A DNA stretch of 64,000 nt from Pecten maximus (Eukaryota): NCBI RefSeq assembly GCF_902652985.1, contig NC_047019.1, positions 42,594,001-42,658,000 on the forward strand. Reading direction: 5' to 3'. Below the pieces are notes generated by a model. That model made no database searches, was not told where the DNA came from, and saw only the letters and a list, made by a program, of their open reading frames with translations. The first letter of the stretch is position 1. Each line of letters opens with the position of its first letter. A program made the position numbers and the translations under genes. Positions 6,001 through 46,955 of this stretch are shown here, in pieces.

Positions 6001-9000
6001 CTATATATAACCTCCTGACAGGTAATATCTATACAGTACAGTTTCCTATTCTGTATCAGGTGACCCCATACCTGTGTCTATATATAACCTCCTGACAGGT
6101 AATATCTATACAGTACAGTTTCCTATTCTGTATCAGGTGACCCCGTACCTGTGTCTATATATAACCTCCTGACAGGTAATATCTATACAGTACAGTTTCC
6201 TATTCTGTATCAGGTGACACCGTACCTGTGTCTATATATAACCTCCTGACAGGTAATATCTATACAATACCATTTCCTATTCTGTATCAGGTGACACCGT
6301 ACCTGTGTCTATATATAACCTCCTGACAGGTAATATCTATACAGTACAGTTTCCTATTCTGTATCAGGTGACACCGTACCTGTGTCTATATATAACCTCC
6401 TGACAGGTAATATCTATACAATACCATTTCCTATTCTGTATCAGGTGAGCCCGGCCATTTTGTCTGCATTTGGACGCGACTCTGAAGGTGCCCAGTGGAC
6501 AGTACAGTTTCTACTTGAGAAGATCCTCAGCAACTTATCGTGTTGGTTAGGGGAGGCTGGCATATTAGAGGATACATTGTCTCTCCTCAACTCAATGGTG
6601 GACAACAGAATCAGGTAGAGAATATCGATTTATCAAAACAGAAACAATATATCATCTAGGCTCTAACATGTTAATAATTCCTGATGAAAGGTAAACATAG
6701 AGAATAAAGGGCATTCCCCTATTGTCATTGGGAGGGAGGAAAGTACTTTATATAGTTACAATATTATTGTTACATTAACTCTATCTTTAAAATGTTTACA
6801 ACAGGGCTGAATATGTAACGAAGTGCAGTTTATTGTGGACGCTTGCCAAGCAGGAGGCTGAACACAAGCCGCCCCTCAGTCTGTTGCCATTCTCGTGTAA
6901 GAGGATGTTACTGCGGTCCCTTGTACAGGCAGGATCAGGGGTGGAGGAGAGCTGGAAGGACCAGTACTGGGCTTGTGTAAGTTCTCACTATGTATCAGTA
7001 GCCTCCCTTTATAACCACATCTCCCCTTATAAATATACCAGTAATCTCCCCTTACACCCATATCAGTAATCTCCCCTTATAAATATACCAGTTATCTCCC
7101 CTTACACCCATAACAGTAATCTCCCTTTATAACCACATCTCCCCTTATAAATATACCAGTAATCTCCCCTTATAAATATACCAGTAATCTCCCCTTACAC
7201 CCATATCAGTAATCTCCCTTTATAACCACATCTCCCCTTACACCCATAACAGTAATCTCCCTTTATAACCACATCTGTGATCTCCCCTAACACCCATAAC
7301 AGTAATCTCCCCTAACACCCATAACAGTAATCTCCCCTAACACCCATAACAGTAATCTCCCCTAACACCCATAACAGTAATCTCCCTTTATAACCACATC
7401 TGTGACCTCCCCTTATAAATATACCAGTAATCTCCCCTTACACCCATATCAGTAATCTCCCTTTATAACCACATCTGTGACCTCCCCTTACAACCATAAC
7501 AGTAATCTCCCCTTTCACCCATATCAGTGATTTCTCCTTTACAACCATATCACTGATCTACTTTGACACCCATATTGGTAATCTTCTTTTACAATCATAA
7601 CACTAATCTCCCCTTTATAACTTAATCAGTAATCTCCCCTTAAAACCATATCAGTAATCTCCCTTTTATAACTATACCAGTAATCTCCCCTTGAAACCAT
7701 ATCAGTAATTTGCCCTTATTACCATAACAGTAATTTCCCCTTATTACCATAACAATGATCTCCCCTTATTACCATAACAGTAATCTCCCCTTACAACCAT
7801 GGTGATCTCAAGAGTTCAACAATTCATTTGTATCATATAATAGGTATCAATTTAAGGAGACAAAAAACAAGTGAAGGGTAACAGTAACATTTTTGTGTTC
7901 CAGGTACTCACTTCCATACACACCAGATTTTATGAGACAGTATGTCATGAACATTTTGCCAAGATGTCGTATGTAACCAGCATGAAGGACAGAATTATCG
8001 ATCTGCTGGAGTGTCTGTGTGGTATTGCCCAGGGCGCACGTATCGATAACATGGAGCGTATCTTCAACTTCTTCCATCCTCTTATGACAGACTCTGTAAA
8101 ACTTCTAGGTAAATATTGGGTCTAGCTTACGGGATCAGTATTATAATATTATGTTAAAATGTGTCGTTCCAGAGTTGTCTGGAGACAGTTTTTTTTAGGC
8201 TTTGTCTGATGCCTAATCCATTTGTAATAAATGCTATTATTTTTTCAATAACATTTGTTGAAATACGGATTGAAAATATAATGACAAAGAATTAAAGTAA
8301 TTATATACACTCATCTGTACTTACATGATCACTGCTATTCCAGCAAGTCTAGTACTTACTTTAAAAACATGATCACTACTATTCCGGCAAGTCTAGTACT
8401 TACTTTAAAAACATGATCACTGCTATTCCAGCAAGTCTAGTACTTACTTTAAAAACATGATCACTGCTATTCCAGCAAGTCTAGTACTTACTTTAAAAAC
8501 ATGATCACTGCTATTCCAGCAAGTCTAGTACTTACTTTAAAACATGATCACTGCTATTCCGGCAAGTCTAGTACTTACTTTAAAAACATGATCACTGCTA
8601 TTCCGGCTAATCTAGTACTTACTTTAAAACATGATCACTACTATTCCAGCAAGTCTAGTACTTACTTTAAAAACATGATCACTACTATTCCGCCAAGTAT
8701 ACGAAAGTATTTCCAAATAAATCACCTGTAAAGTATGTACAATGTACTACTTTTCCATTTAGTGATATCAAATAGAATTGAAGTAAGTAAAACAAGCTTA
8801 TAATCAACACAAACAAAACTCATGCTTTGATGATAGTAGGTTATTTTAAAAACCATAGATAACTGTTACAGTTGATGAAAAAAATAGATATTGATACAGG
8901 AAACCGCCGGTTAGTTTGAACAAATCAAATAAATATTGGTAATCCTGTTCGAACTGTTTGAAATATAAAACTTAATTTAAAACTGTCCAAGTCAGCATCG

Positions 9001-26491: not shown

Positions 26492-27425
26492 TCAGTTAGA
26501 CGCGCTCGATTGTTCCTGAAACTCGTACATGGCGCTGGGGTTGATCCTACGCTTAGTATTACTCGTGAGACTCGCCCTGGCCTTAAGTCTGCTGGGGAAC
26601 CACATACCACATACCTGGCGAAACTTCTTTATCCGGATACTGTAAATTACAGGGTTTATAGCACTGTTGGCGTAACCGATCCACAACAGAACCAGGTGCC
26701 TGGTCCTGCTCACTGTCCCCTCGGACTGGGAAATTAGTATGTTTAGGGCGTACGGAGTCCAACACAAGACAAACGTGATGAAGAGGATAAGGATGGTTTT
26801 GAATGCTCTGGTTTTAAAACTCATGTCGAGGCTTACCCTAAACGACCTTTGTAAAACGGGTATCCCCAGTCTGCCATTGTTACTGATGACACTTACGCTG
26901 AAGTCCATGTTCGGATGGTTGTGAACCCTACTCTTGTTCTTACGAACCGATCCTAATATTTGTATGAACGAGAACGCCATTACTATGACGGGAATGAAGT
27001 ATGTGATACACAGCTTTAAAATCATGAATCCAATGTCACGTGCTTGACCGTCAAATGTAAGACGACAAATCGCGTGACTCCGGATAAATTTGTAGTCACC
27101 CCATCCAACCGTTGACGGAAACGCCATCACCATAGATATCAACCAAGAGGCGACCATCAATATCTTGGCGCGACATGTTGTCAGTTTGTCTTTTCGCTGA
27201 ACAATTATCATATATCTGTCCATGCTGATGGTAAGAATCATGAACACCCCCACAGATACGAAAGTGTCCAGCAGAAATAGCATCGCCTTACACGATTCTG
27301 GGCCTAGAACGTGCTCCTTCCAGAACAATGCAGAAAACGAAAACGTCATCGAGAAGGTCGCGGTACATATGTCACTAAACGCCATGTTGGTGAGGAGTAG
27401 ATTAATGGCAGACCTCATTGCCGAC
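26492..27425 (-). CDS. Class A orphan GPCR of the GPR45/GPR63 (PSP24) family, 5'-partial; TM1 and N-terminus fall in the gap
   Basis: The frame is open up to the gap (SAMRSAINLLL...AFSD). Motifs DRYMIIVQRKDKL, SLDMSFKTRAF, CWTPY, NPVIY-SIRIKKF and TKRRINPSA match recalled GPR63/GPR45 signatures. No intron in the visible part. Confidence 0.9.
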
Positions 27426-27525
27426 NNNNNNNNNNNNNNNNNNNNNNNNNNNNNNNNNNNNNNNNNNNNNNNNNNNNNNNNNNNNNNNNNNNNNNNNNNN
27501 NNNNNNNNNNNNNNNNNNNNNNNNN
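27426..27525. other. Assembly gap (100 N)
   Basis: Run of N; a round placeholder size. Confidence 1.
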
Positions 27526-28415
27526 GAACATGCTATCTACGTCCCAGGTTGAATACAGGAAAAAATATTTTATGCATGTCCCTGGTTGAATAGAGTAAAA
27601 AAGGAACATGTGATATATGTCCCAGGTTGAATACAGGAAAAAGGAACATGTTGTATACGTCCCTTGTTGAATACAGGAAAAGGGAACATGTTATATACGT
27701 CCCTTGTTGAATACAGGAAAAGGGGACATGTTATGTACGTCCCTTGCTGAATACAAGAAAAAGGAACATGTTATATACGTCCCTTGATGAATACAGGAAA
27801 AGGGAACATGTTATGTACGTCCCTTGATGAATACAGGAAAAAGGAACATGTTATGTACGTCCCTTGTTGAATACAGGAAAAAGGAACATGTTATGTATGC
27901 CCCTTGTTGAATACGGGAAAAAGGAATACGTTATGTACGCCCCTTGTTGAATACAGGAAAAAGGAATACGTTATGTACGTCCCTTGGTGAATACAGGAAA
28001 AAGGAATACGTTATGTACGTCCCTTGTTGAATACAGGAAAAAGGAATACGTTATGTACGTCCCTTGGTGAATACAGGAAAAAGGAATACGTTATGTACGT
28101 CCCTTGGTGAATACAGGGAAAGGGAACATGTTATGTACGCCCCTTGTTGAATACAGGAAAAAGGAATACGTTATGTACGTCCCTTGGTGAATACAGGGAA
28201 AGGGAACATGTTAGTCACGCCCCTTGGTGAATACAGGGAAAGGAACATGTTATGTACGTCCTAGGTTCAAAACAGGAAAAAGGAACATGTTGTATACGTC
28301 CCTTGATGAATACAGGAAAAAGGGAACATGTTATGTACGCCCCTTGTTGAATACAGGAAAGGGGAACATGTTATAGACGTCCCTGCTTGAATACAGGAAC
28401 ATGTTGAATACAGGG
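27526..28415. repeat. 40-bp minisatellite (GAACATGTTATGTACGTCCCTTGTTGAATACAGGAAAAAG), about 22 copies, running into the gap
   Basis: Directly visible. Confidence 0.96.
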
Positions 28416-37500: not shown

Positions 37501-40500
37501 CAAATGTCTGAAGTAACACATTTTATACTGTGTTGAATTTAACATTACAAAGTCATAAAGGAAAAGTCTGAAATCTGATTTTTCTGGATGAAAATGAAAC
37601 CTACCATCCTCAGCAGACTTTCTGCCTGCTCCAAGAGAGCTCCAGCAAAGACAAGAGTGAAGTTGGTACCATCTCCAACTTCCTGCTCCTGTTGATGTGA
37701 TGCAATTACCAACATCTTGGCTGCTGGGTGCTGAACCTCCAGTTCTCGTAGGATGGTGGCAGCATCATTGGTCACAAAGAGCTTTTCTAACTGGTTGATG
37801 ACCATCTTATTCTGGCCTGTAACATGAAATATTACACAAAACTTTGTTTACACTTCATTACATATTTTACACAGCCTACTTCCATCATAAAGAATTGTCT
37901 GAATTTCTTCTATGTGTTTGCCGACATTGCAATTTTAATACCCTACTAATTGGTTATTCATCTTCAACTAGAAACTTAAACGTTAATAAACAGTAGTTTG
38001 ACAGTCAGACTATTGTAATTTTAAACCTCTGCTAATTCATCTTCAACTAGTAACTTAAACATTAATTAAATAACAGTAGTTTGATAGACTAGATAAATCT
38101 TCATGAGCTTTAACACTGTAACATGTAGATCTCCCATAAAAAGACTGGGCTGTTACCGAAATACCTTGGACTGTCCTGTTCATGCTACAAATCTTACCTA
38201 GTGGGCCCAAGGCTGATCGTGTGGTCCTCGCTAACTCCTTACAAGCGTCTATGTTCCGATAGACAGCCTCTTCTAGTCCACTATAGTGCTACATGATTAA
38301 AAGAGAAACACATTTGATAAAGTTACCATTTCAATTTTCGAAATTATCCGTGTTTCCTGCGATGGAATAAATAAACATAATTGCACAGAAAATCCACAAA
38401 ACCCTACTGCTGTGCAATTCGCACCGAAATATTCTGCCACACCTCCACTTCATTCAGATATCATACACATGTGACACCACAGACAACCATAAACAGATCA
38501 TAGCATGGCGAGTGATTAGGTTATTAGTTTTGCTGTGATGATATAACTAGTTAATGAAATCAGAATATAAACAAGAGATCCCAGAGGAATCTTGGCGCCC
38601 ACCATTGAATGATCTTCATAGGTTCCATGTCAGATTGATCTTTTCTCTACTTTTCCCTTCATTTTATATATTAATTACTAATCTGTGCAAATTGAGACAT
38701 CCCTCCAGTACTTTTCAAACAAGGGAATCCTAGCTATATAAGAAATTTGAGATTTAACGATAATGGCTGTTTGTTTGCCAGGTTGTTTTCAGGACAGACT
38801 GGTCCAAAAATGCAATACAAGGGACCAAGGGGAACCTACTTATGAAATTTGAGAAAGATCCATTCAGTACTTTGAGAAATAGAGATAACAAACTTCAATT
38901 GTCAAAATCCAAGATGGCGGTCTGTCGGCCATATTGTTTTCCAATTGATCTCAAAATGCAATAAGCATAACGAGGCACCAAGGGGAACCTCAATTCGAAA
39001 TTTGAGAAAGATCCCTTCAGTACTTTCTCAGAAATAGCGATAACAAACTTCAATTGTCAAAATCCAAGATGGCTGCCTGTCGGCCATGTTATTTTCAGAT
39101 TGGTCTCAAAATGCAACATGCATAACTAAGCACCAAGGGAAACTTACATATGAAATTTGAGAAAGATCACTTCAGTACTTTCTCAGAAATAGCGATAACA
39201 AACTTCAATTGTCAAAATCCAAGATGGCTGCCTGACGGCCATGTTGTTATCCGATTGGTCTCAAATCGCAATATGCATAACTATGCACCAAGGGGAACCT
39301 ACATATGAAATTTGAGAAAGATCCCTTCAGTACTTTCTCAGAAATAGTGATAACAAACTTCAATTGTCAAAATCCAAGATGGCTGCCTGTCGGCCATGTT
39401 GTTATCCGATTGGTCTCAAAATGCAATATGCATAACTAGGCACCAAGGGGAACCTTCATATGAAATTTGAGAAAGATCCCTTCAGTACTTTCTCAGAAAT
39501 AGCGATAACAAACTTCAATTGTCAAAATCCAAGATGGCTGCCTGTCGGCCATGTTATTTTCAGATTGGTCTCAAAACGCAATATGCATAACTAGGCACCA
39601 AGGGGAACCTACATATGAAATTTGAGAAAGATCCCTTCAGTACTTTCTGAGAAATAGCGATAACAAGAATTGTTTACGGACGGAGGGACGGAGGGACGGA
39701 CGGACGACGGACCACGGACGCAGGGCGATTTGAATAGCCCACCATCATCAGATGGTGGGCTAAAAACTTAAAAAATATTACACACAAAAATGAACTCACT
39801 CATGCACAAAGTCACATCAATATGAGCACCACATACAGGGCAGTGTAACAATATTTCCACATTTACTGATAGGCAACTTTTTATGATGTTTACTATCTTG
39901 ATGTGTCCTCATTTTCTCAATGAATCCAATTTCAGTGGCCCATTAGCTAATCGCTATCTCAGAGAGTCGTGTCAGTCATTTTTTGTTTTTTGTTTGTGAA
40001 CAGATTGCCTGTGCATGCTTGTACTGAAAGGCTTAGGCAGTGAACAATTTTCGCACTTACCTGAATTTACATTTTCAAAGCTTTAATTTTTACTAGTTGA
40101 TGAAAATACAAGATTCTCGTTTATATTTATCCTTATAGGATAAACTCATTTCAACGATATAATGCCCCATCAACGATGCATAAACACAGGTTAAGTTATT
40201 ATCTGGGAGTGCTACCTTTTGATCACTGCCAAAAACAGATTTTTTTAACTACAGAAAGGGGAGGTGGTGACATTAGATGGAAATCAGTGGGTCTCTTAGT
40301 GTAGAACTTCGCGTTGAGTATGGATACCTCAGAGGTATGCCGGGCAGTTAGAGCAAATAAACTATGTGTAGTTATAAACAAGGGATGATAAGATTTGTCC
40401 TGATGAAGACCCTGTGATAGGGTCGAAACTAGTAGACCAATAAAATCTTGGCAATGCTCGAGAATGTTGTGGTTACTATCCCTTGTTTATAAGATCTTTT

Positions 40501-41093
40501 TTAGATCATAAAATGTCAGCCCTTTCAAACATACACCAATTGCAATCTGTCACGGATTTGTTTGTCAAATGTTGAAAACATCCAACAAGCTAAATCAGCA
40601 CTGGGACTTGATAAACATGGCAATTTTTTTTTTGATTGTCATATTCGAAAACTTGAATTGTGTTACATTGTTGGCAAACAACAGAAAATGAAGACTAATG
40701 TCATAAAATCTATAAATAAGTATGTTGTCCCGATTATCAATTATAATTGATATCTAATCAGAAAGGCAACTGATTCCTGATGATAGATTGAGACATTGGT
40801 TTTAAAAACCAGAAGTGCAAGTTATACTTTCACTTAAAAGAGAATGGAAGTTCTATGTCATTTAACTCTCAACTGCAACTTCTTACCAATCATGCTATTT
40901 GACTATAATTAATTGCCAAAAAAAAAATATATAACTGTTTAGCAATAAAGATTATAACGTTGAAAAGGTGAAATGGAAAAATAAAGATATGAAATTACTT
41001 GGGGCAAACTTGGCTTCTGAAAAATGGGTTTATTCAACCCCGGAGAAAAGGAAAAGTTTTACAATTACTGAATCTTTTCTTACACTATGACAA

Positions 41094-41129
<36 letters not shown>

Positions 41130-44100
41130 GTAAATGTGTCATTGTAAAATTTTAATGTAAAATGGCTAATTGTTTTCCCGTTTGCCTGGGCCTGTGAGGG
41201 GTGTGTCCCTGTGGGTCCAATGATTGGTCAGTGAAGTAAGCTGGTACTCACGGCCTCCGTCCAATCCCCGATTTACCCAGGGTCCCCTAGGTCCCGGTTT
41301 AGGTTTGAATCACAGAAGTTTTATTCATTCGAGATACTTTGGCTTGCGTGTCAACTTTGTTTTTTGTCACGTCAAGTCGGAAGTTCGGAGCCTAAGTCGG
41401 GCACATACGACCGAACTTTCATTACGATGGTATCAATCACGAGCATATTCGAGTAACAGAAGATCAGGAGAATCAATTCTTCGACACGAAACCTGATTAA
41501 GCTGTATAATTACGAACTCTCGATTTATTTCCCATTGTGTTGGGAACTCCGAGCTACGAGTCCAACGATCCGATTTGTGTTGAGAACATCGATTTACGCA
41601 CTTGTTAATATGGCCGGTGAATGGTGAATGAACTTGATTGGGTCATGCAGAGAAATCGTAGAACCAAATCCCGAATTGATTATCGATCCTTACACGAAGG
41701 GAATTGGAACAGTAGTGTGTCCGATATATCTGAAACGAACCCTCAAGAACTGTCTATAAACATTGCAAATCAAGAGGACCTATTTTTCGCTTCGTGTGCA
41801 GGAATGGCTGAAGGGGGTAAATCTGTCACGCCCCGGGCTTATCGCAGTCTAGAGAACGTTTGCATCGAGTCTCCTTTGGTTAGTGATGTGGACAAGCGCC
41901 TTGAGGAGGCAGACCGGGAGATCGCGCTGTTAGAGAAAAAACTGGAGTCGGCCAGATTGAACAGTGCATTAAAGGACAGAAGGAAGAAGCGGGATGATCT
42001 TCAGAGGCAGTTAGATGACATCCAGCAGGATCAGCCTCAATCAGCAGCGACTGGCCTTGGTTCAGGTATGCCTAACGACATAGACTTGATTAAACTGAGA
42101 AAAATGGACCAGCTGGTCAGCAGATCGAGCAAGAAGATGTCCAGGGTGTTGCCGGAATTTTCCGGTAGTGATACTGACTCTGACACTCTATCAGTCGCCT
42201 CATCGGCTTCCTACAATAGCTTTAAACGAGCACGTAAGGGTGAAAAACTCAGATCTGGTTTGAAAGCTAAAGCTGGAGACGTCGTGAAATTCCCTCAAGC
42301 TTATCCCCACCACTTTCTTCAATACAAATATGTAAGTAAGAATCCCCAGTTTCAAGATCTCACCTTTAAATTATTTGTGGCGGGAGAGCTTGAGATAATT
42401 TCCAAGACGAGCTCTGCTTCAGAGAAGGAAGGAAGGACAGTATTCCTTCAGAAAATTGTGTATTATAGCAATATTTATGAATGGAAAGCCTTGCTTGCAT
42501 GGTATGCGGCATGGCTTCGCAAGATAGAGTTGGGTGAGAGATCATGGTCAGATGATCCCTCAAGTATTGAAGTCCCAATTTTGGCGAAACATGTGTTGAT
42601 GCAAAAAAATGAGAAACCCAGAAATAGTGGTCCGATTCAGTCGGACTCTGGGAGAGTTTGGTTTTGTGTAATGTTTCAGAAAAATCGTTGTAGCGAAAGA
42701 GGGGATCATGATGGCGACATACGGGGTGTCAAAAGGCATTTGCTACATATCTGTGCCACATGTTGGAAAAAAGATGGGGTAAAAAGACAACATCCTGAAT
42801 CAGCAGAGACATGTCCAAATGCCTTGTGACTAACCGTCCCGTCTGTAGGTATTGAGATAGATCCAGACACCTCAATTATAGAACCCGAGTATGTGCCTTT
42901 TGAATTTGGAGGTAATTTGTTTGTATCGGGTGGCCAAGATATTGATTATAGACATATACCTATAGACGCTGTAGATGATATAGTTTCTGAGGTACCCGAA
43001 GAAACTGTTAGAAATTTACAGGTTCAATCCTGCTTTAATTTTAATACCCAAAGGACCCCTGTTAAGTCAAATTTTAACATCAGATATATGAAAGACAGGT
43101 TAGAGTTGTACTCGGATCTAGAGGTTTTAAAATTTTTAGAGTTTGGTTTTCCCATAGGGTTAGACAACCACCTCTTAATTCATCGCCAGGAGGCTACTTC
43201 AGAGGTAAGTTCTTCTATCAAGTACAGAAATCACAAAGGAGCTACAGACTTTCCTCAGGAAATAAGTGAGTATTTACGTATTGAGTTGGCAAATGAGTCG
43301 GTGTTAGGTCCATTTGAGGAAAATCCGTTTTCCTTACCCATGGTGATTTCCCCCTTAAACTCAGTTCCAAAGAGGGATTCTGAGGAAAGACGCATAATTT
43401 TGGATTTGAGCTTTCCGGACTCTAAGTCAGTAAATAGTTGTATCCCCAAGACTTCATATTTAGGGGACCCCATCTCATTGTCATACCCCAGGGTAGATGA
43501 CCTGGTAGAGATTATCAAGGAGAAAGGGAGGGGTTGTTGTCTTTTCAAGAGAGACCTTAGGAAGGCTTACAGACAAATTCCCATCGACCCGGGAGATATT
43601 CGTTTTTTAGGTTTCTCTTGGGAAGGTAAGATGTATTTTGATCGGGTCTTATCTATGGGTTTGCGTTCGGCAGCGTACATTTGTCAAAGAGTCACAAGTC
43701 TGATTTCGTTCTTAATGCTGCAGGACGGTTTTCTGGTCCTCAATTATCTAGATGATTTTGCAGGGGCTGAGTGCCCGGACATGGCAGATTTGGCTTTCTG
43801 GAGACTTGGTTCCCTTCTCTCTGATTGTGGCTTTATCGAATCGGAGAAGAAGGCAGAGCCTCCTGCCACTCGTATGGTTTTTTTGGGTGTCTTGTTTGAC
43901 ACAGTCAGGATGGTCTTAGAGGTCCCTGATTTTAGGTTGCAGGAAATAGGAATCTTAACCTGCGAATGGTTGAAAAAGGAAAGGGCTTCCTTAAAGGAGA
44001 TTCAATCCCTGCTGGGAAAATTACAGTTTGTCGCTGCCTGTGTTCGTCCAGGTCGACTTTTTGTTAGCCGTATATTGAACTGGCTCCGGTCGATTGGTCA

Positions 44101-46955
44101 GGACAGTCATCGTTCCTGGAGTATTTCAGAAGAGGTGAGAAAGGACATATTGTGGTGGCACATTTTTCTGGCACAGTATAACGGTGTGTCCATTATGTTT
44201 CTGGAACAATGGTCCACTCCAGACACTGAGTTTGCCTCAGATGCTTGTCTCACAGGCGGGGGAGGCTACTTCATGGGTAGATACTTTCATACAGAGTTCC
44301 CAGACACCATCCTTCAACTGTCCCCATGTATAAACATCCTAGAGTTGTTAACAGTTATGGTGAGTATAAAACTCTGGGCCAGTGCCTTTAAAGGTAAGAG
44401 AATTGTCATACTATGTGACAACGAAGCCACGGTATCGGTCCTCAACTCAGGTAGGTCCAGAATTCAATTTATGCAGAGCTGTCTCAGAGAGATATGTTAC
44501 TTTGCTGCTAGTTTTGAATTTGAGATCAGGGCGCAACACATCTCTGGAATTCAAAATCGACTACCAGACCATTTATCCAGGTGGCATTTAGATGTTATAC
44601 ACCAGCAGGAGTTCATCCGTTTGACCAAGGAAGTTGACCTGGTAGAGGAGGTAGTACCCTCTAGCATGTTCTCCTTCTCCCACTCTTGGTAGATTATCTA
44701 TACATAGTAGTTGAGACAGGGTATATATATAGTGATGTATCCCTCTCTTGGTGGTTTACCTTTTTCTTCAGTTTTGTACATATGTTGACACTATATACAT
44801 AGCAGTGTATCTTTTCCTAGTTTATAAGGTAAATTTTAGCGATATCAGGCTTTTATGACTCCTGTTTCATCCTTCCAGACACTGCCTGGTCACAGCTTAG
44901 GAAAGATCTCAAGGTGTCCGCTAGAGCAGCCTTCGCTGAGGGTACTTATAGAAATTTCCGTACACAATGGAAAGCTTATTTTCTGTTTTGCGAAGCGTTC
45001 CGGAAACAGCCGTTGCCGGTAAGCACGGAGATTATATGCCTTTACGCTCAGTTTTTAAGTCGGACTTTCATCAGTGTCGATTCTATTCGCAACTATATAG
45101 CGGGAGTCAAAACTCTTCACATGTTGCTAAACTTAAAGTATGACATTAGACAATATGAACTGAACTTAGTTTTGAAAGGTTTGTCGAGGTTGAACCCACA
45201 TTGTCCCTCTCAAGCGAAACCTATCACCCCTCAGATTCTCGGTAAGATACATCAGCGACTAGATCATGATGATCCAGAGGACACCACTCTGTGGTGTATG
45301 TTTTTATTCAGTTTCTATCTCATGCTGCGGAAGTCTAATTTAATGCCTAATAGTAGTCACAAATTTGACCCTAGTAAACATCTTTTACGACAGGATATTT
45401 TAGTAGAGGATGGGGTCCTCTTGGTTGTCGTAAAGTGGTCTAAGACCAATCAATTCGGACATCGGATCGTGCGTTCCCCTCTGGTGGCCATTCCTGGGTC
45501 CCCACTTTGTCCTTTACATGCCTTTGTTCGCATGACTGATCTAAACCCTGCACGTCCCAGGGCCCCAGCCTTCCTTAAGACTACAGGAAAGAAAATTGTC
45601 CCCTTTTGTTACCCACAATTTCAGCAGAGGCTACGGGAACTTATTCTTAGTGTAGGCCTAGATGCTGCCTCGTTCTCTTCGCATAGTTTTCGCAGGGGAG
45701 GGGCCACTTGGGCCTTTTCTTTGGGGATTCCAGGGGAGTTAATTCAGGTGCAGGGGGATTGGGCCAGCGACGCCTACAAAACGTATATCAGTTTTTCCTT
45801 AGAGGATAGGCTTCAGGTTTGCAGAAACATGAGAGATGCAATTTTAGCATTGCATCATTAACCAAGTTATCAGCCTCCCGCAGTTTTTTCGGGCTTGGTG
45901 GCCGGAGGCTTGGCGGCCCCTCAAACTGCTTGTATTTGTGTTTAATATGTTTGCTTATTAACATGCTTATTCATAAGTATTATTAATTTGCTTAATTTGA
46001 GCTTTGTTTGATTTGAGCTATGTTTAATTTGAGCTATGTTTAATTTGAGCTATGTTTAATTTGAGTTTTGTTTAATTGAGCTTTGTTTAAATTGATCTTC
46101 ATTTATTTGAGTTTGATCATGTAGATGCTTAAAGCTGTGTGTTCGATAACAAGCTTGCATGTAGTGCTAGAGGTGTATTTCCTTTTGGGGTTGCCTTGCT
46201 TATGCCATTTGCATACCAGAGACATTTAAGTAAAGTGGAGCATGGCACCCTAACTGGCTGACGCCTTCTAATGTGTTATACAATAAATTGTTACGGGCAT
46301 ACAGTTGTTATGTTGTAAATATCGTTGACCAGGCAGGGGAGAGAATTACGTTTACTTAATCCCATGTAATTTATTTTATTATACCGACATGTGGGAACAG
46401 TTTTGGAAAATAAATTTTGTATCTTGTGCACTATACTACAATATTCTAGAAAGAATCAGGCATGGATTCATTGTGTAATGATACTGCTCAGATAGGGGAG
46501 GTTACTCTTCCCAAACTTCAACAATCCCTTACAGCATGTAAAAACATGCGGACGGATTATCATTCATGAAGGATCATGATTTTACCAATTTTACCATTTT
46601 GAAATAAATAATGGAACCCTAGATAAAAGAAATGTATACTAAAAATAAATGTTATGCTATTTCACTATAATATCGTATATCTTATGTATGGTCCAAGTGG
46701 AAAGCCTTCAAGAATGTTCTGGAAATCATAAACACAAACAGCATGAACAGCATGGTTGTCACATGGTTTCAATGGTTCATGGAAAACAGACGATTAAACG
46801 TGAAAGAGATTTCTGTGTGATTTCAGAAAATGTCGAACTAACAAACCAATACGCAATTTACTCAATTTTGAATAAAGATAGAAAATATATATTACCTTAG
46901 CACCATCTTTCAACATCTGGGCAAAGCCCGGTGCTGTCGGTACGTGCATCGCCAT
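31569..46955 (-). CDS. CCT8: T-complex protein 1 subunit theta (chaperonin CCT8), complete, 16 exons, 544 aa
   Basis: Exons 46896-46955, 38198-38288, 37605-37816, 37156-37225, 36753-36881, 36287-36348, 35894-36031, 34932-35003, 34554-34727, 34330-34417, 34002-34117, 33774-33845, 33150-33242, 32307-32378, 31873-31992, 31569-31634 (1635 nt, all GT-AG, phases consistent). Peptides MAMHVPTAPGFAQMLKDGAK, TNDAATIL, EVGDGTNF, VPGAGATE and IIMAKPAGGPK...WDDD*. Confidence 0.97.
35490..35866 (+). mobile_element. Degenerate non-autonomous Helentron-type (HINE-like) element
   Basis: Starts AACAAGAGGCTCAGAGAGCCTGCATCGCTCAC (short hairpin plus subterminal motif) and ends GGTGAGCCAAAAA. The terminus resembles the reverse-oriented one at 60875-60910. 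Confidence 0.55.
38569..39766 (+). mobile_element. Non-autonomous Helentron-type (HINE-like) element with about 6 internal 155-bp repeats
   Basis: 5' hairpin (AGATCCCAGAGGAATCT) and subterminal GCCCACCAT; 155-bp tandem units (marker at 38891, 39046, 39201, 39356, 39511); GACG microsatellite; 3' palindrome TAGCCCACCATC-ATCA-GATGGTGGGCTA; A-rich flanks. Confidence 0.8.
40390..40449 (+). ncRNA. Minimal type I hammerhead ribozyme (Penelope/retrozyme-like)
   Basis: Stem I AAGATTT-GTC / GAC-(CAATA)-AAATCTT; core CTGATGA+A 40400-40407; stem II GACCCT/AGGGTC; GAAA 40425-40428; stem III C-TA-G; GTA cleavage triplet 40432-40434. Confidence 0.82.
41094..41128. repeat. 35-nt poly-G run
   Basis: Directly visible, immediately left of the retrotransposon. 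Confidence 0.9.
41621..42829 (+). CDS. Gag-like ORF1 (coiled coil plus C-terminal Cys/His zinc finger)
   Basis: 402 aa; heptad region RLEEADREIALLEKKLE; WFCVMFQKNRC...H...HICATC...H...CP at the C-terminus. Confidence 0.85.
   Translation: MVNELDWVMQRNRRTKSRIDYRSLHEGNWNSSVSDISETNPQELSINIANQEDLFFASCAGMAEGGKSVTPRAYRSLENVCIESPLVSDVDKRLEEADREIALLEKKLESARLNSALKDRRKKRDDLQRQLDDIQQDQPQSAATGLGSGMPNDIDLIKLRKMDQLVSRSSKKMSRVLPEFSGSDTDSDTLSVASSASYNSFKRARKGEKLRSGLKAKAGDVVKFPQAYPHHFLQYKYVSKNPQFQDLTFKLFVAGELEIISKTSSASEKEGRTVFLQKIVYYSNIYEWKALLAWYAAWLRKIELGERSWSDDPSSIEVPILAKHVLMQKNEKPRNSGPIQSDSGRVWFCVMFQKNRCSERGDHDGDIRGVKRHLLHICATCWKKDGVKRQHPESAETCPNAL
42830..44692 (+). CDS. Reverse transcriptase - RNase H (pol); frame open from the gag stop, first ATG at 43088
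   Basis: RIILDLS, KRDLRKAYRQIP, MGLRSA, YLDD, FLG; RNase H residues SDAC, LELL, CDN, LPDHLSR. Confidence 0.95.
   Translation, partial: LTVPSVGIEIDPDTSIIEPEYVPFEFGGNLFVSGGQDIDYRHIPIDAVDDIVSEVPEETVRNLQVQSCFNFNTQRTPVKSNFNIRYMKDRLELYSDLEVLKFLEFGFPIGLDNHLLIHRQEATSEVSSSIKYRNHKGATDFPQEISEYLRIELANESVLGPFEENPFSLPMVISPLNSVPKRDSEERRIILDLSFPDSKSVNSCIPKTSYLGDPISLSYPRVDDLVEIIKEKGRGCCLFKRDLRKAYRQIPIDPGDIRFLGFSWEGKMYFDRVLSMGLRSAAYICQRVTSLISFLMLQDGFLVLNYLDDFAGAECPDMADLAFWRLGSLLSDCGFIESEKKAEPPATRMVFLGVLFDTVRMVLEVPDFRLQEIGILTCEWLKKERASLKEIQSLLGKLQFVAACVRPGRLFVSRILNWLRSIGQDSHRSWSISEEVRKDILWWHIFLAQYNGVSIMFLEQWSTPDTEFASDACLTGGGGYFMGRYFHTEFPDTILQLSPCINILELLTVMVSIKLWASAFKGKRIVILCDNEATVSVLNSGRSRIQFMQSCLREICYFAASFEFEIRAQHISGIQNRLPDHLSRWHLDVIHQQEFIRLTKEVDLVEEVVPSSMFSFSHSW
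44881..45861 (+). CDS. Tyrosine recombinase; frame open from 44833, first ATG only at 45121
   Basis: Catalytic set LRKSN (R), WSKTNQ (K), HSFRRGGA (HxxR), GDW and AYKTY (Y); N-terminal core-binding-like region TYRNFRTQWKAYFLFC. Confidence 0.95.
   Translation, partial: TAWSQLRKDLKVSARAAFAEGTYRNFRTQWKAYFLFCEAFRKQPLPVSTEIICLYAQFLSRTFISVDSIRNYIAGVKTLHMLLNLKYDIRQYELNLVLKGLSRLNPHCPSQAKPITPQILGKIHQRLDHDDPEDTTLWCMFLFSFYLMLRKSNLMPNSSHKFDPSKHLLRQDILVEDGVLLVVVKWSKTNQFGHRIVRSPLVAIPGSPLCPLHAFVRMTDLNPARPRAPAFLKTTGKKIVPFCYPQFQQRLRELILSVGLDAASFSSHSFRRGGATWAFSLGIPGELIQVQGDWASDAYKTYISFSLEDRLQVCRNMRDAILALHH
45992..46100. repeat. 16-bp tandem repeat (TTAATTTGAGCTATGT), about 7 copies, in the retrotransposon 3' region
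   Basis: Directly visible. Confidence 0.9.

What the first reader, a model, noticed from the sequence alone, without database searches (positions are those of the whole stretch)
40300..40495. Minimal hammerhead ribozyme enclosed in a 15-bp perfect inverted repeat in CCT8 intron 1
Seen on +: a complete hammerhead core (CTGATGA-A, 6-bp stem II, GAAA, GTA triplet, predicted cut after 40434) with stem III reduced to the palindrome ACTAGT and a bulged stem I overlapping AATAAA. It is nested within TTATAAACAAGGGAT (40372-40386) / ATCCCTTGTTTATAA (40478-40492), with another inverted repeat ATACCTC-A-GAGGTAT upstream. Known: minimal type I hammerheads with a palindromic stem III occur in Penelope-like element pseudo-LTRs and retrozymes, and are thought to cleave as dimers. 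Inference: a solo pLTR or retrozyme-type insert. It is antisense to CCT8, so it would not cut that pre-mRNA, but it is co-oriented with and about 700 bp upstream of the YR retrotransposon and could process + strand transcripts.
Basis: partly seen in the sequence, partly recalled or inferred. Interest (0 to 1): 0.7.

Follow-up and report, generated by a model that had tools for sequence, protein, structure and literature searches.

The report
Penelope hammerhead insert; parent gains gene
This 245-base insert is the broken-off, head-to-head end repeat of a Penelope-type jumping gene, and its self-cutting RNA motif is likely idle at this spot; the parent elements in this scallop genome carry an extra zinc-finger reading frame behind the nuclease, which our searches did not find described for this class.

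Summary
The hammerhead is real (core 40400-40434, compensatory changes across relatives) and lies in intron 1 of CCT8, antisense. It is not a retrozyme and is not tied to the YR element. It is the pseudo-LTR (pLTR) of a Neptune-type Penelope-like element (PLE). The insert (about 40248-40492, 11-12 bp target duplication) is two pLTR pieces joined head to head; the 15-20 bp inverted repeat is their overlap, not a ribozyme stem. 25 of 27 tallied inverted copies pair two fixed 3' ends about 115 nt apart. Copy 5' ends pile up at the 5' edge of the hammerhead, mostly with an extra G (likely capped, uncut RNA); four insertions begin exactly at the predicted cut. This layout is known, and the scan has noted such pLTR hammerheads before on other DNA (2048 notes). 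New here: the parent lineages put a conserved 190-aa two-finger C2H2 ORF directly behind the GIY-YIG stop, also in a second scallop; nuclease-bearing PLEs are described as single-ORF. The local copy is aged, unpaired and promoterless, so likely inert.

The parts
40237..40247 (+). Left copy of the target-site duplication (AT-rich, 11 nt)
   Evidence: matches the right copy with one indel
40248..40391 (-). Long pLTR piece, element-sense on the minus strand: positions about +83 to +221 (C3 of the core = +1); its outer end is 3' end site b; has no hammerhead
40324..40338 (-). Small hairpin (ATACC-loop-GGTAT) between end sites a and b; seen with varying loops in related lineages; candidate protein-binding stem-loop (inferred)
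   Evidence: sequence, read by eye
40372..40391 (.). Left arm of the inverted repeat = part of the long piece that overlaps the short piece
40392..40492 (+). Short pLTR piece, element-sense on the plus strand: about -5 to +102; outer end is 3' end site a; carries an 8-nt deletion
40397..40437 (+). Minimal type I hammerhead: stem I GTC/GAC, core, extra A, 7-bp stem II, palindromic stem III; predicted cut after 40434
40473..40492 (.). Right arm of the inverted repeat = 3' end of the short piece
40492..40503 (+). Right copy of the target-site duplication (12 nt)
38289..46895 (-). CCT8 intron 1 (host context)
41141..46345 (+). Unrelated young tyrosine-recombinase retrotransposon (end approximate); not part of the finding

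Best explanation
The insert is two pieces of the hammerhead-bearing end repeat of a Penelope-like retrotransposon joined head to head inside a target duplication, likely made when the element's enzyme primed two DNA copies, one from each nicked strand, and likely inert where it now sits. Shown: family membership, the head-to-head layout, target duplications, two fixed 3' end sites (a near +100, b near +215), and RT, Zn-linker and GIY-YIG frames in longer copies. Inferred: the element RNA starts, capped, at the G three bases before the core, driven by a promoter in the preceding 3' UTR. The RT-endonuclease nicks both strands of AT-rich DNA about 10-15 bp apart and starts copying internally at site b on one strand and site a on the other. 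Here the b copy stopped 20 nt past site a and the a copy ran to about the RNA start; joining them made the inverted repeat. In the parent the ribozyme would cut only as a dimer through the stem III palindrome, and only part of the time, taking off the cap and the first 35-38 bases. Shown for the parents: a separate N-terminal ORF, the RT-EN ORF and a downstream two-finger C2H2 ORF. Inferred: the last is made by stop-restart translation and acts as a nucleic-acid-binding helper of the element.
For: Family: 64 matches (40 of 59 candidates scored); 16 exact core hits against 0 for the control. Link to RT: L040 and L077 (RVT_1; GIY-YIG). Intact relative L266: pLTR, 748-aa RT-EN, 197-aa ORF2, pLTR. 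Target duplications of 10-20 bp at many copies. Inverted copies pair one a end with one b end in 25 of 27 tallied by eye; none a+a or b+b. This matches the published layout (PMC3846280: an inverted pLTR overlapping by 15 bp, 9-bp TSD; PMC8557442 Fig. 2 legend) and two internal RT starts with both strands extended (PMC11167929). 5' ends: 13 of 26 pieces of a sister family end at -5..+1 (one at a contig start dropped; expected 0.5, Poisson 2e-14). A non-element G precedes GTC in 12 of 13 pieces ending at -3 (6 free of microhomology, p about 4e-4) and in 3 of 3 more. A GTAC..AGG-type box sits at -34..-36 in 10 of 13 lineage representatives and ACGTCA upstream in 10 of 13. Cut-site starts: L016 and L028 at +36; L274 and L280/281 at +34, 3 of 12 pieces. 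Covariation: 4 pairs with two-sided change, 89.6% paired, 0 of 500 shuffles as high on score; palindrome ACTAGT or ACCGGT by lineage.
Against: No cleavage, cap or promoter was tested; only assembled contigs were available, which cannot show starts or strand. Several G junctions can be microhomology with the opposite piece (6 of 12). The window copy itself starts at about -5 without the extra G. The pair counts are among related sequences; the count of pairs with two-sided change did not beat the shuffles (174 of 500). The a-b spacing (about 115 nt) is far longer than the published 30-40 bp tail. No intact master of the window's own lineage was found; L077 is decayed. A stronger palindrome does not predict cut-site starts: 0 of 16 and 0 of 6 in two other ACCGGT lineages. 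ORF2 function is unknown; its C-terminal half has no family or fold match.
Confidence: 0.85

Rival explanations
1. A non-LTR retrozyme monomer: an ORF-less hammerhead repeat that spreads through circular RNA.
For: Short, ORF-less, type I hammerhead with a palindromic stem III; mussel retrozymes exist (PMC7229834, passages); retrozymes may derive from pLTRs (bioRxiv 10.64898/2026.07.22.740005, first part read).
Against: No head-to-tail arrays among the 52 loci parsed; copies are 5'-truncated with fixed 3' ends and continue upstream into UTR, ORF2 and RT; most short copies start before the cut site, not at it.
Confidence: 0.04
2. The copy is a working cis element on plus-strand RNA, for example trimming read-through into the YR element or a CCT8 antisense RNA.
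For: Core intact; same strand as the YR; present in three DNA samples.
Against: 0 of 10 other YR flanks hold it; YR copies are 99-100% alike while the insert is about 80-90% like its kin, so the two arrived separately; no partner for a dimer in the window; upstream promoter motifs missing; stem I predicted sequestered.
Confidence: 0.04
3. Same element, other route: the head-to-head form comes from self-priming on an antisense template or from DNA-level fold-back, and the pile-up at -3 is a stop of the RT rather than the transcription start.
For: PMC3846280 (passage) proposes antisense self-priming for head-to-head PLEs; several junctions are near-palindromic (L005, L126, L172); the copied stem I strands could fold back.
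Against: Both outer ends are the fixed element 3' sites with target duplications; the extra G and the fixed-distance upstream motifs fit a capped start; direct copies (L010, L145, L192, L209, L298) show the same 5' end without inversion.
Confidence: 0.15
4. ORF2 is not part of the PLE but the tail of another transposon or a captured host zinc-finger gene.
For: Earlier scan notes report zinc-finger LINE tails nested in PLEs (e1-9358316, unchecked); databases name the Ylistrum homologues PRDM16-like and EVI1-like.
Against: Its ATG lies -1 to +7 from the EN stop in 9 of 11 loci checked; a hammerhead follows in 22 of 30 ORF2 loci, some overlapping; synonymous sites are saturated while protein identity stays 31-51%; RT and ORF2 homologues have consecutive accessions on an equally long contig in Ylistrum.
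Confidence: 0.07

Closest known systems
[quoted passage not shown]
   Same: Extra base between positions 9 and 10.1, G10.1-C11.1, 7-bp helix II, short helix I, palindromic helix III, mostly single scattered copies, some pairs on opposite strands.
   Different: Nothing in the motif; here copy ends add genomic hints of a start just before stem I and of occasional cutting.
Inverted-pLTR Penelope insertions, e.g. Adineta Pen2a_Av (PMC3846280, passages; PMC8557442 Fig. 2 legend)
   Same: Head-to-head pLTRs, 15-bp overlap, TSD near 10 bp, extension on one arm only.
   Different: The extension (site a to b) is about 115 nt, not 30-40 nt; the insert has no ORF.
PAc (Poseidon, Anolis; PMC11167929, parts 1-2 of 4 read)
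   Same: Two internal RT start sites, AT-rich targets, both strands extended, uncut RNA as main template.
   Different: Poseidon lacks the CX2-5CxxC linker; single ORF starting inside the hammerhead; start sites close together.
Neptune clade of endonuclease-positive PLEs (PMC8557442, passages)
   Same: RT, CX3CxxC linker, C-terminal GIY-YIG with CCHH residues, hammerhead pLTR.
   Different: Described as single-ORF (PMC8557442, PMC6431247 passage); these scallop lineages split off an N-terminal ORF and add a C2H2 ORF behind the nuclease.
Non-LTR retrozymes (PMC7229834, passages)
   Same: Type I hammerhead in a short non-coding repeat.
   Different: Retrozymes are tandem arrays giving circular RNAs; not seen here.

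Membership tests
Type I minimal hammerhead (PLE type) | Core CUGANGA / GAAA / NUH with stems I-III in type I order | tested here: met
   2 of 100 simulations give a hit
Type I minimal hammerhead (PLE type) | Compensatory changes in stems among relatives | tested here: met
   (three stem II pairs change on both sides between lineages); stem I GCC/GGC in L257
Type I minimal hammerhead (PLE type) | Match to an Rfam hammerhead model | tested here: not met
   none at E<=10; the minimal form may lie outside those models (inference)
Type I minimal hammerhead (PLE type) | Self-cleavage as dimer | not testable with these tools
   indirect only: four insertions start at the first base after the cut
Endonuclease-positive PLE (Neptune type) | PLE RT joined to the pLTR family | tested here: met
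Endonuclease-positive PLE (Neptune type) | C-terminal GIY-YIG with CCHH residues | tested here: met
   Pfam GIY-YIG over cut-off in L077, L180, L266; residues read
Endonuclease-positive PLE (Neptune type) | CX2-5CxxC linker between RT and EN | tested here: met
   CX3CxxC in L180 and L266; frameshifted remains in L077
Endonuclease-positive PLE (Neptune type) | pLTRs, 5' truncation, inverted copy, variable TSD, optional tail | tested here: met
   tail longer than published
Endonuclease-positive PLE (Neptune type) | Single ORF | tested here: not met
   three frames in L266; ORF2 in many lineages; hence a variant, Neptune-like rather than canonical
Endonuclease-positive PLE (Neptune type) | RT tree places it in Neptune | not tested
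   no named reference set was at hand
Non-LTR retrozyme | Tandem 150-450 nt repeats each with a hammerhead | tested here: not met
Non-LTR retrozyme | Circular RNA | not testable with these tools
   only contigs of runs were served
Part of the YR (DIRS-order) element | Present upstream of other copies of that family | tested here: not met
   0 of 10 outer flanks

The most novel reading that the evidence does not exclude
The insert marks an undescribed scallop clade of three-ORF, nuclease-bearing Penelope elements that make a two-finger C2H2 protein by stop-restart translation behind the nuclease, start their capped RNA at the first base of the hammerhead, and use that ribozyme as a dimer-dependent self-decapping switch whose cut and uncut products are both copied into the genome.
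Probability: 0.5. Interest if true: 0.65.

Novelty: new variant of a known kind. Interest (0 to 1): 0.45.

Why it matters
The motif at these coordinates is ordinary: a dead pLTR hammerhead. The family adds two things. First, endonuclease-bearing PLEs are described as single-ORF; a conserved downstream zinc-finger ORF with an intact full-length copy (L266) is a testable accessory factor in a class whose cycle is poorly known. Second, what the PLE hammerhead does in the cell is open (PMC11167929 found no reads ending at the cut). Here genomic copy ends sit at a likely capped start just before stem I and, in four insertions, exactly at the cut, which gives base-exact predictions for CAGE, 5' RACE and in vitro priming.

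Tried and rejected
Rfam scan: no hammerhead. Link to the YR element: none. Retrozyme arrays: none among fetched loci. First pair count used a misaligned structure string and was discarded; redone on a new alignment of 24 sequences that left out 14 of the 33 earlier rows (junction-cut or redundant) and added 5. A constrained monomer hammerhead could not be scored because ViennaRNA forbids the 2-nt loop. Idea that the G-C-richer palindrome predicts cut-site starts: holds in the L266 lineage only, not in two others (0 of 16, 0 of 6); rejected as a rule. Empty-site allele: not seen in four runs; contigs cannot prove absence. Expression: one contig of a run guessed to be RNA and one of an RNA run cross the EN-ORF2 border of L266 at depth under 5; no evidence of one transcript. 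Atlas search of the ORF2 C-terminal half: no usable hit. AATAAA behind the cut as poly(A) signal: common in the family but displaced or changed in other lineages; not testable. Luense et al. (PMC5785218) is not held; known only through the review PMC6765202. Paper searches for an extra ORF: 0 papers; listings; two read by passages in 107, 108; nothing relevant; for copy ends at the cut: (0 papers). Repbase, Dfam, subscription journals and supplements (e.g. those of PMC8557442) were not seen and may hold such elements. No complex or structure prediction was run.

Full report
Observation. The sequence is as described. A hammerhead descriptor finds this one site on either strand of the window; 2 of 100 simulated windows give a hit. 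Rfam does not score it. CCT8 exons lie on the minus strand; exon 2 is 38198-38288 and exon 1 is most likely 46955-46896, so the motif is antisense in intron 1. One protein encoded in G000 is identical to an NCBI Pecten maximus protein, so the genome is taken to be that scallop.

It is a dispersed repeat with an inner inversion. A search of G000 gave 64 matches (40 of 59 candidates scored). In most loci the left part of the query and the hammerhead part match on opposite strands, which means that the family unit reads: hammerhead, about 100 nt to end site a, about 115 nt more to end site b. In the window, 40248-40391 is the b-ended piece on the minus strand (+83 to about +221, C3 = +1) and 40392-40492 is the a-ended piece on the plus strand (about -5 to +102). 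The 15-20 bp inverted repeat is the stretch present in both pieces. An 11-12 nt AT-rich direct repeat with one indel flanks the insert; relatives have 10-20 bp duplications. The small hairpin at 40324-40338 belongs to the a-to-b segment. The copy is aged: about 80-90% like its kin, with an 8-nt deletion and a 5-6 nt insertion. Contigs of other samples cross the inner junction and both borders.

The parent is a Penelope-like element. Longer copies run upstream of the hammerhead into a 3' UTR and RT (L040). L077 holds decayed RT, linker and GIY-YIG. L090 shows the pLTR running into an N-terminal frame. A looser pattern found a young sister family (30 hits, control 0) with the same layout. L266 (G000:C18, minus strand) is a full-length related copy: a 408-nt 5' repeat that keeps about 305 nt upstream of the hammerhead, a 748-aa RT-CX3CxxC-GIY-YIG frame, and a 3' pLTR ending at site a. 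These are the marks of Neptune-type PLEs given in PMC8557442 (passages); no tree was built.

Ribozyme structure is kept. On 24 sequences 89.6% of cells pair, 4 of 14 pairs change on both sides, and no shuffle of 500 reached the covariation score; the number of such pairs alone did not beat the shuffles (174 of 500), and the rows are related. GTC/GAC of stem I is nearly fixed and changes to GCC/GGC in L257; the stem III palindrome is ACTAGT in some lineages and ACCGGT in others. The middle two bases cannot pair within one molecule, so keeping the palindrome points to pairing between two ribozymes, as proposed in PMC4209133 (parts 1-2 read) and reviewed in PMC6765202 (passages). In the window context stem I is predicted not to form (P=0.00 for 40372-40492; 0.77-0.93 for the isolated motif).

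How the insert was likely made. Of 27 inverted insertions tallied by eye, 25 have one arm ending at a and one at b (window families 15 of 17, sister 8 of 8, L266 lineage 2 of 2); the two exceptions have one b arm and a short arm. Inverted copies were not tallied. PMC11167929 (parts 1-2 read) reports two internal RT start sites, cleavage and extension of both strands, AT-rich targets and uncut RNA as main substrate. PMC3846280 (passages) describes an inverted pLTR with a 15-bp overlap, a one-sided tail and a 9-bp TSD, and proposes antisense self-priming instead. I favour priming from both nicks; this step is inferred.

What copy 5' ends say. In the sister family, sampled by a motif downstream of the cut, 13 of 26 pieces end at -5..+1 (27 found, one at a contig start dropped, two re-read by eye across a 2-nt insertion); 0.5 were expected from the rate just downstream (P 2e-14). 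In the window families 17 of 69 listed pieces do so (biased by how loci were found; one duplicate locus not counted). Where the end is exactly -3, a G replaces the element's T in 12 of 13 cases; six of the twelve could come from the opposite piece, the six clean ones give p about 4e-4; 3 of 3 more in another lineage. An extra G at full-length 5' ends is read as a copied cap for L1 and SVA (PMC2912911, passage). A GTAC..AGG-type box lies at -34..-36 in 10 of 13 lineage representatives and ACGTCA upstream in 10 of 13, which fits a promoter in the preceding UTR; PMC2377424 (passages) places Penelope's promoter in the pLTR but inside the transcribed region, so the parallel is partial. Four insertions start at the first base after the predicted cut: L016 and L028 (+36), L274 with a perfect TSD and both arms of L280/281 (+34; 3 of 12 pieces). 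Against: at most 1 of 26 in the sister family, 0 of 16 and 0 of 6 in two other lineages. So cutting likely happens, but most templates were uncut. Earlier scan notes reached like readings on other genomes; I had both ideas in my notes before reading them, and they are no independent support.

The local copy is likely inert. CCT8 pre-mRNA carries the antisense strand. The plus-strand piece lacks the upstream motifs and has no partner. None of 10 other outer 5' flanks of the YR family holds pLTR sequence, and those YR copies are mostly 99-100% alike, far younger than the insert.

The unexpected part: an extra ORF. Behind the GIY-YIG stop the parent lineages carry a frame of about 190 aa with two C2H2 fingers (Pfam) and an acidic, serine-rich tail ending in a conserved T-x-C-x-D-E motif. 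Its ATG is -1 to +7 from the EN stop in 9 of 11 loci checked. A protein search of G000 gave 47 matches (150 of 298 candidates scored); of 30 fetched loci, some overlapping, 22 have a hammerhead and 12 an EN match within the fetched flank. Between lineages synonymous sites are saturated while identity stays 31-51%. The window's own lineage has ORF2 remains (L077, L089, L090), 62-65% like Ylistrum XP_060073404.1, whose neighbour accession XP_060073403.1 is the RT-EN protein, 63-68% like L077, on a contig of the same length; adjacency there is inferred from accessions. About ten further homologues that match along most of ORF2 exist, one named from Argopecten. The N-terminal domain is also a separate, overlapping frame in L266 and L090; an ORF1 split by a frameshift is mentioned for some PLEs in PMC8557442 (Fig. 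1 legend). That paper and PMC6431247 (passage) call EN-bearing PLEs single-ORF. Searches found no description of a downstream zinc-finger ORF, nor did scan notes; Repbase, Dfam, subscription papers and supplements were not seen.

Verdict. The flagged motif is a real but known kind of ribozyme in a known kind of insertion, likely without function here. The family it belongs to is a new variant: a Neptune-like PLE with an accessory C2H2 ORF, and with copy ends that make the ribozyme's role testable. Interest 0.45.

Noticed in passing
L266:2240-6640 (G000:C18:7266740-7271140, minus strand): Apparently intact full-length three-ORF PLE (N-terminal ORF, 748-aa RT-EN, 197-aa C2H2 ORF) with both pLTRs; best candidate for biochemistry. 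Its core reads CTGAAGA and its palindrome ACCGGT.
   Followed up: yes
window 41141-46345: Young YR retrotransposon with three open frames (402, 620, 342 aa); at least 8 other copies, most 99-100% alike, carry a second 223-nt terminal repeat 4.7 or 5.2 kb downstream, which the window copy lacks (split direct repeats, Ngaro type; label recalled).
   Followed up: partly
window 38700-39770: 155-bp tandem array ending in a GACG microsatellite; resembles Helentron-linked bivalve satellites (recalled, untested).
   Followed up: no
L054, L055, L056, L067, L069, L072, L084: One internally deleted PLE copy (N-terminal part joined to RT, then UTR) recurs on several unplaced contigs with the same 3' flank; likely spread as part of a larger duplication, some copies interrupted by later insertions.
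   Followed up: partly
L040:1075-1500 and L044, L049: Internally deleted copies with short joined pieces of ORF, suggesting template jumps or non-autonomous derivatives.
   Followed up: no
window 40438-40443 and family: AATAAA sits 3-4 nt behind the cut in the window families; if used as poly(A) signal, cutting would separate it from the upstream RNA. Displaced in other lineages.
   Followed up: partly
window 26492-27532 (-): Intronless rhodopsin-family GPCR frame (Pfam 7tm_1, E 6e-40).
   Followed up: no
L090:4300-4900 (-): A different Cys/His-rich frame follows the truncated N-terminal ORF; probably another element.
   Followed up: no
L089:999-4860 and 6190-6740: A decayed three-part PLE of one lineage lies about 1.4 kb upstream of a truncated copy of the window's lineage, on the same strand.
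   Followed up: no
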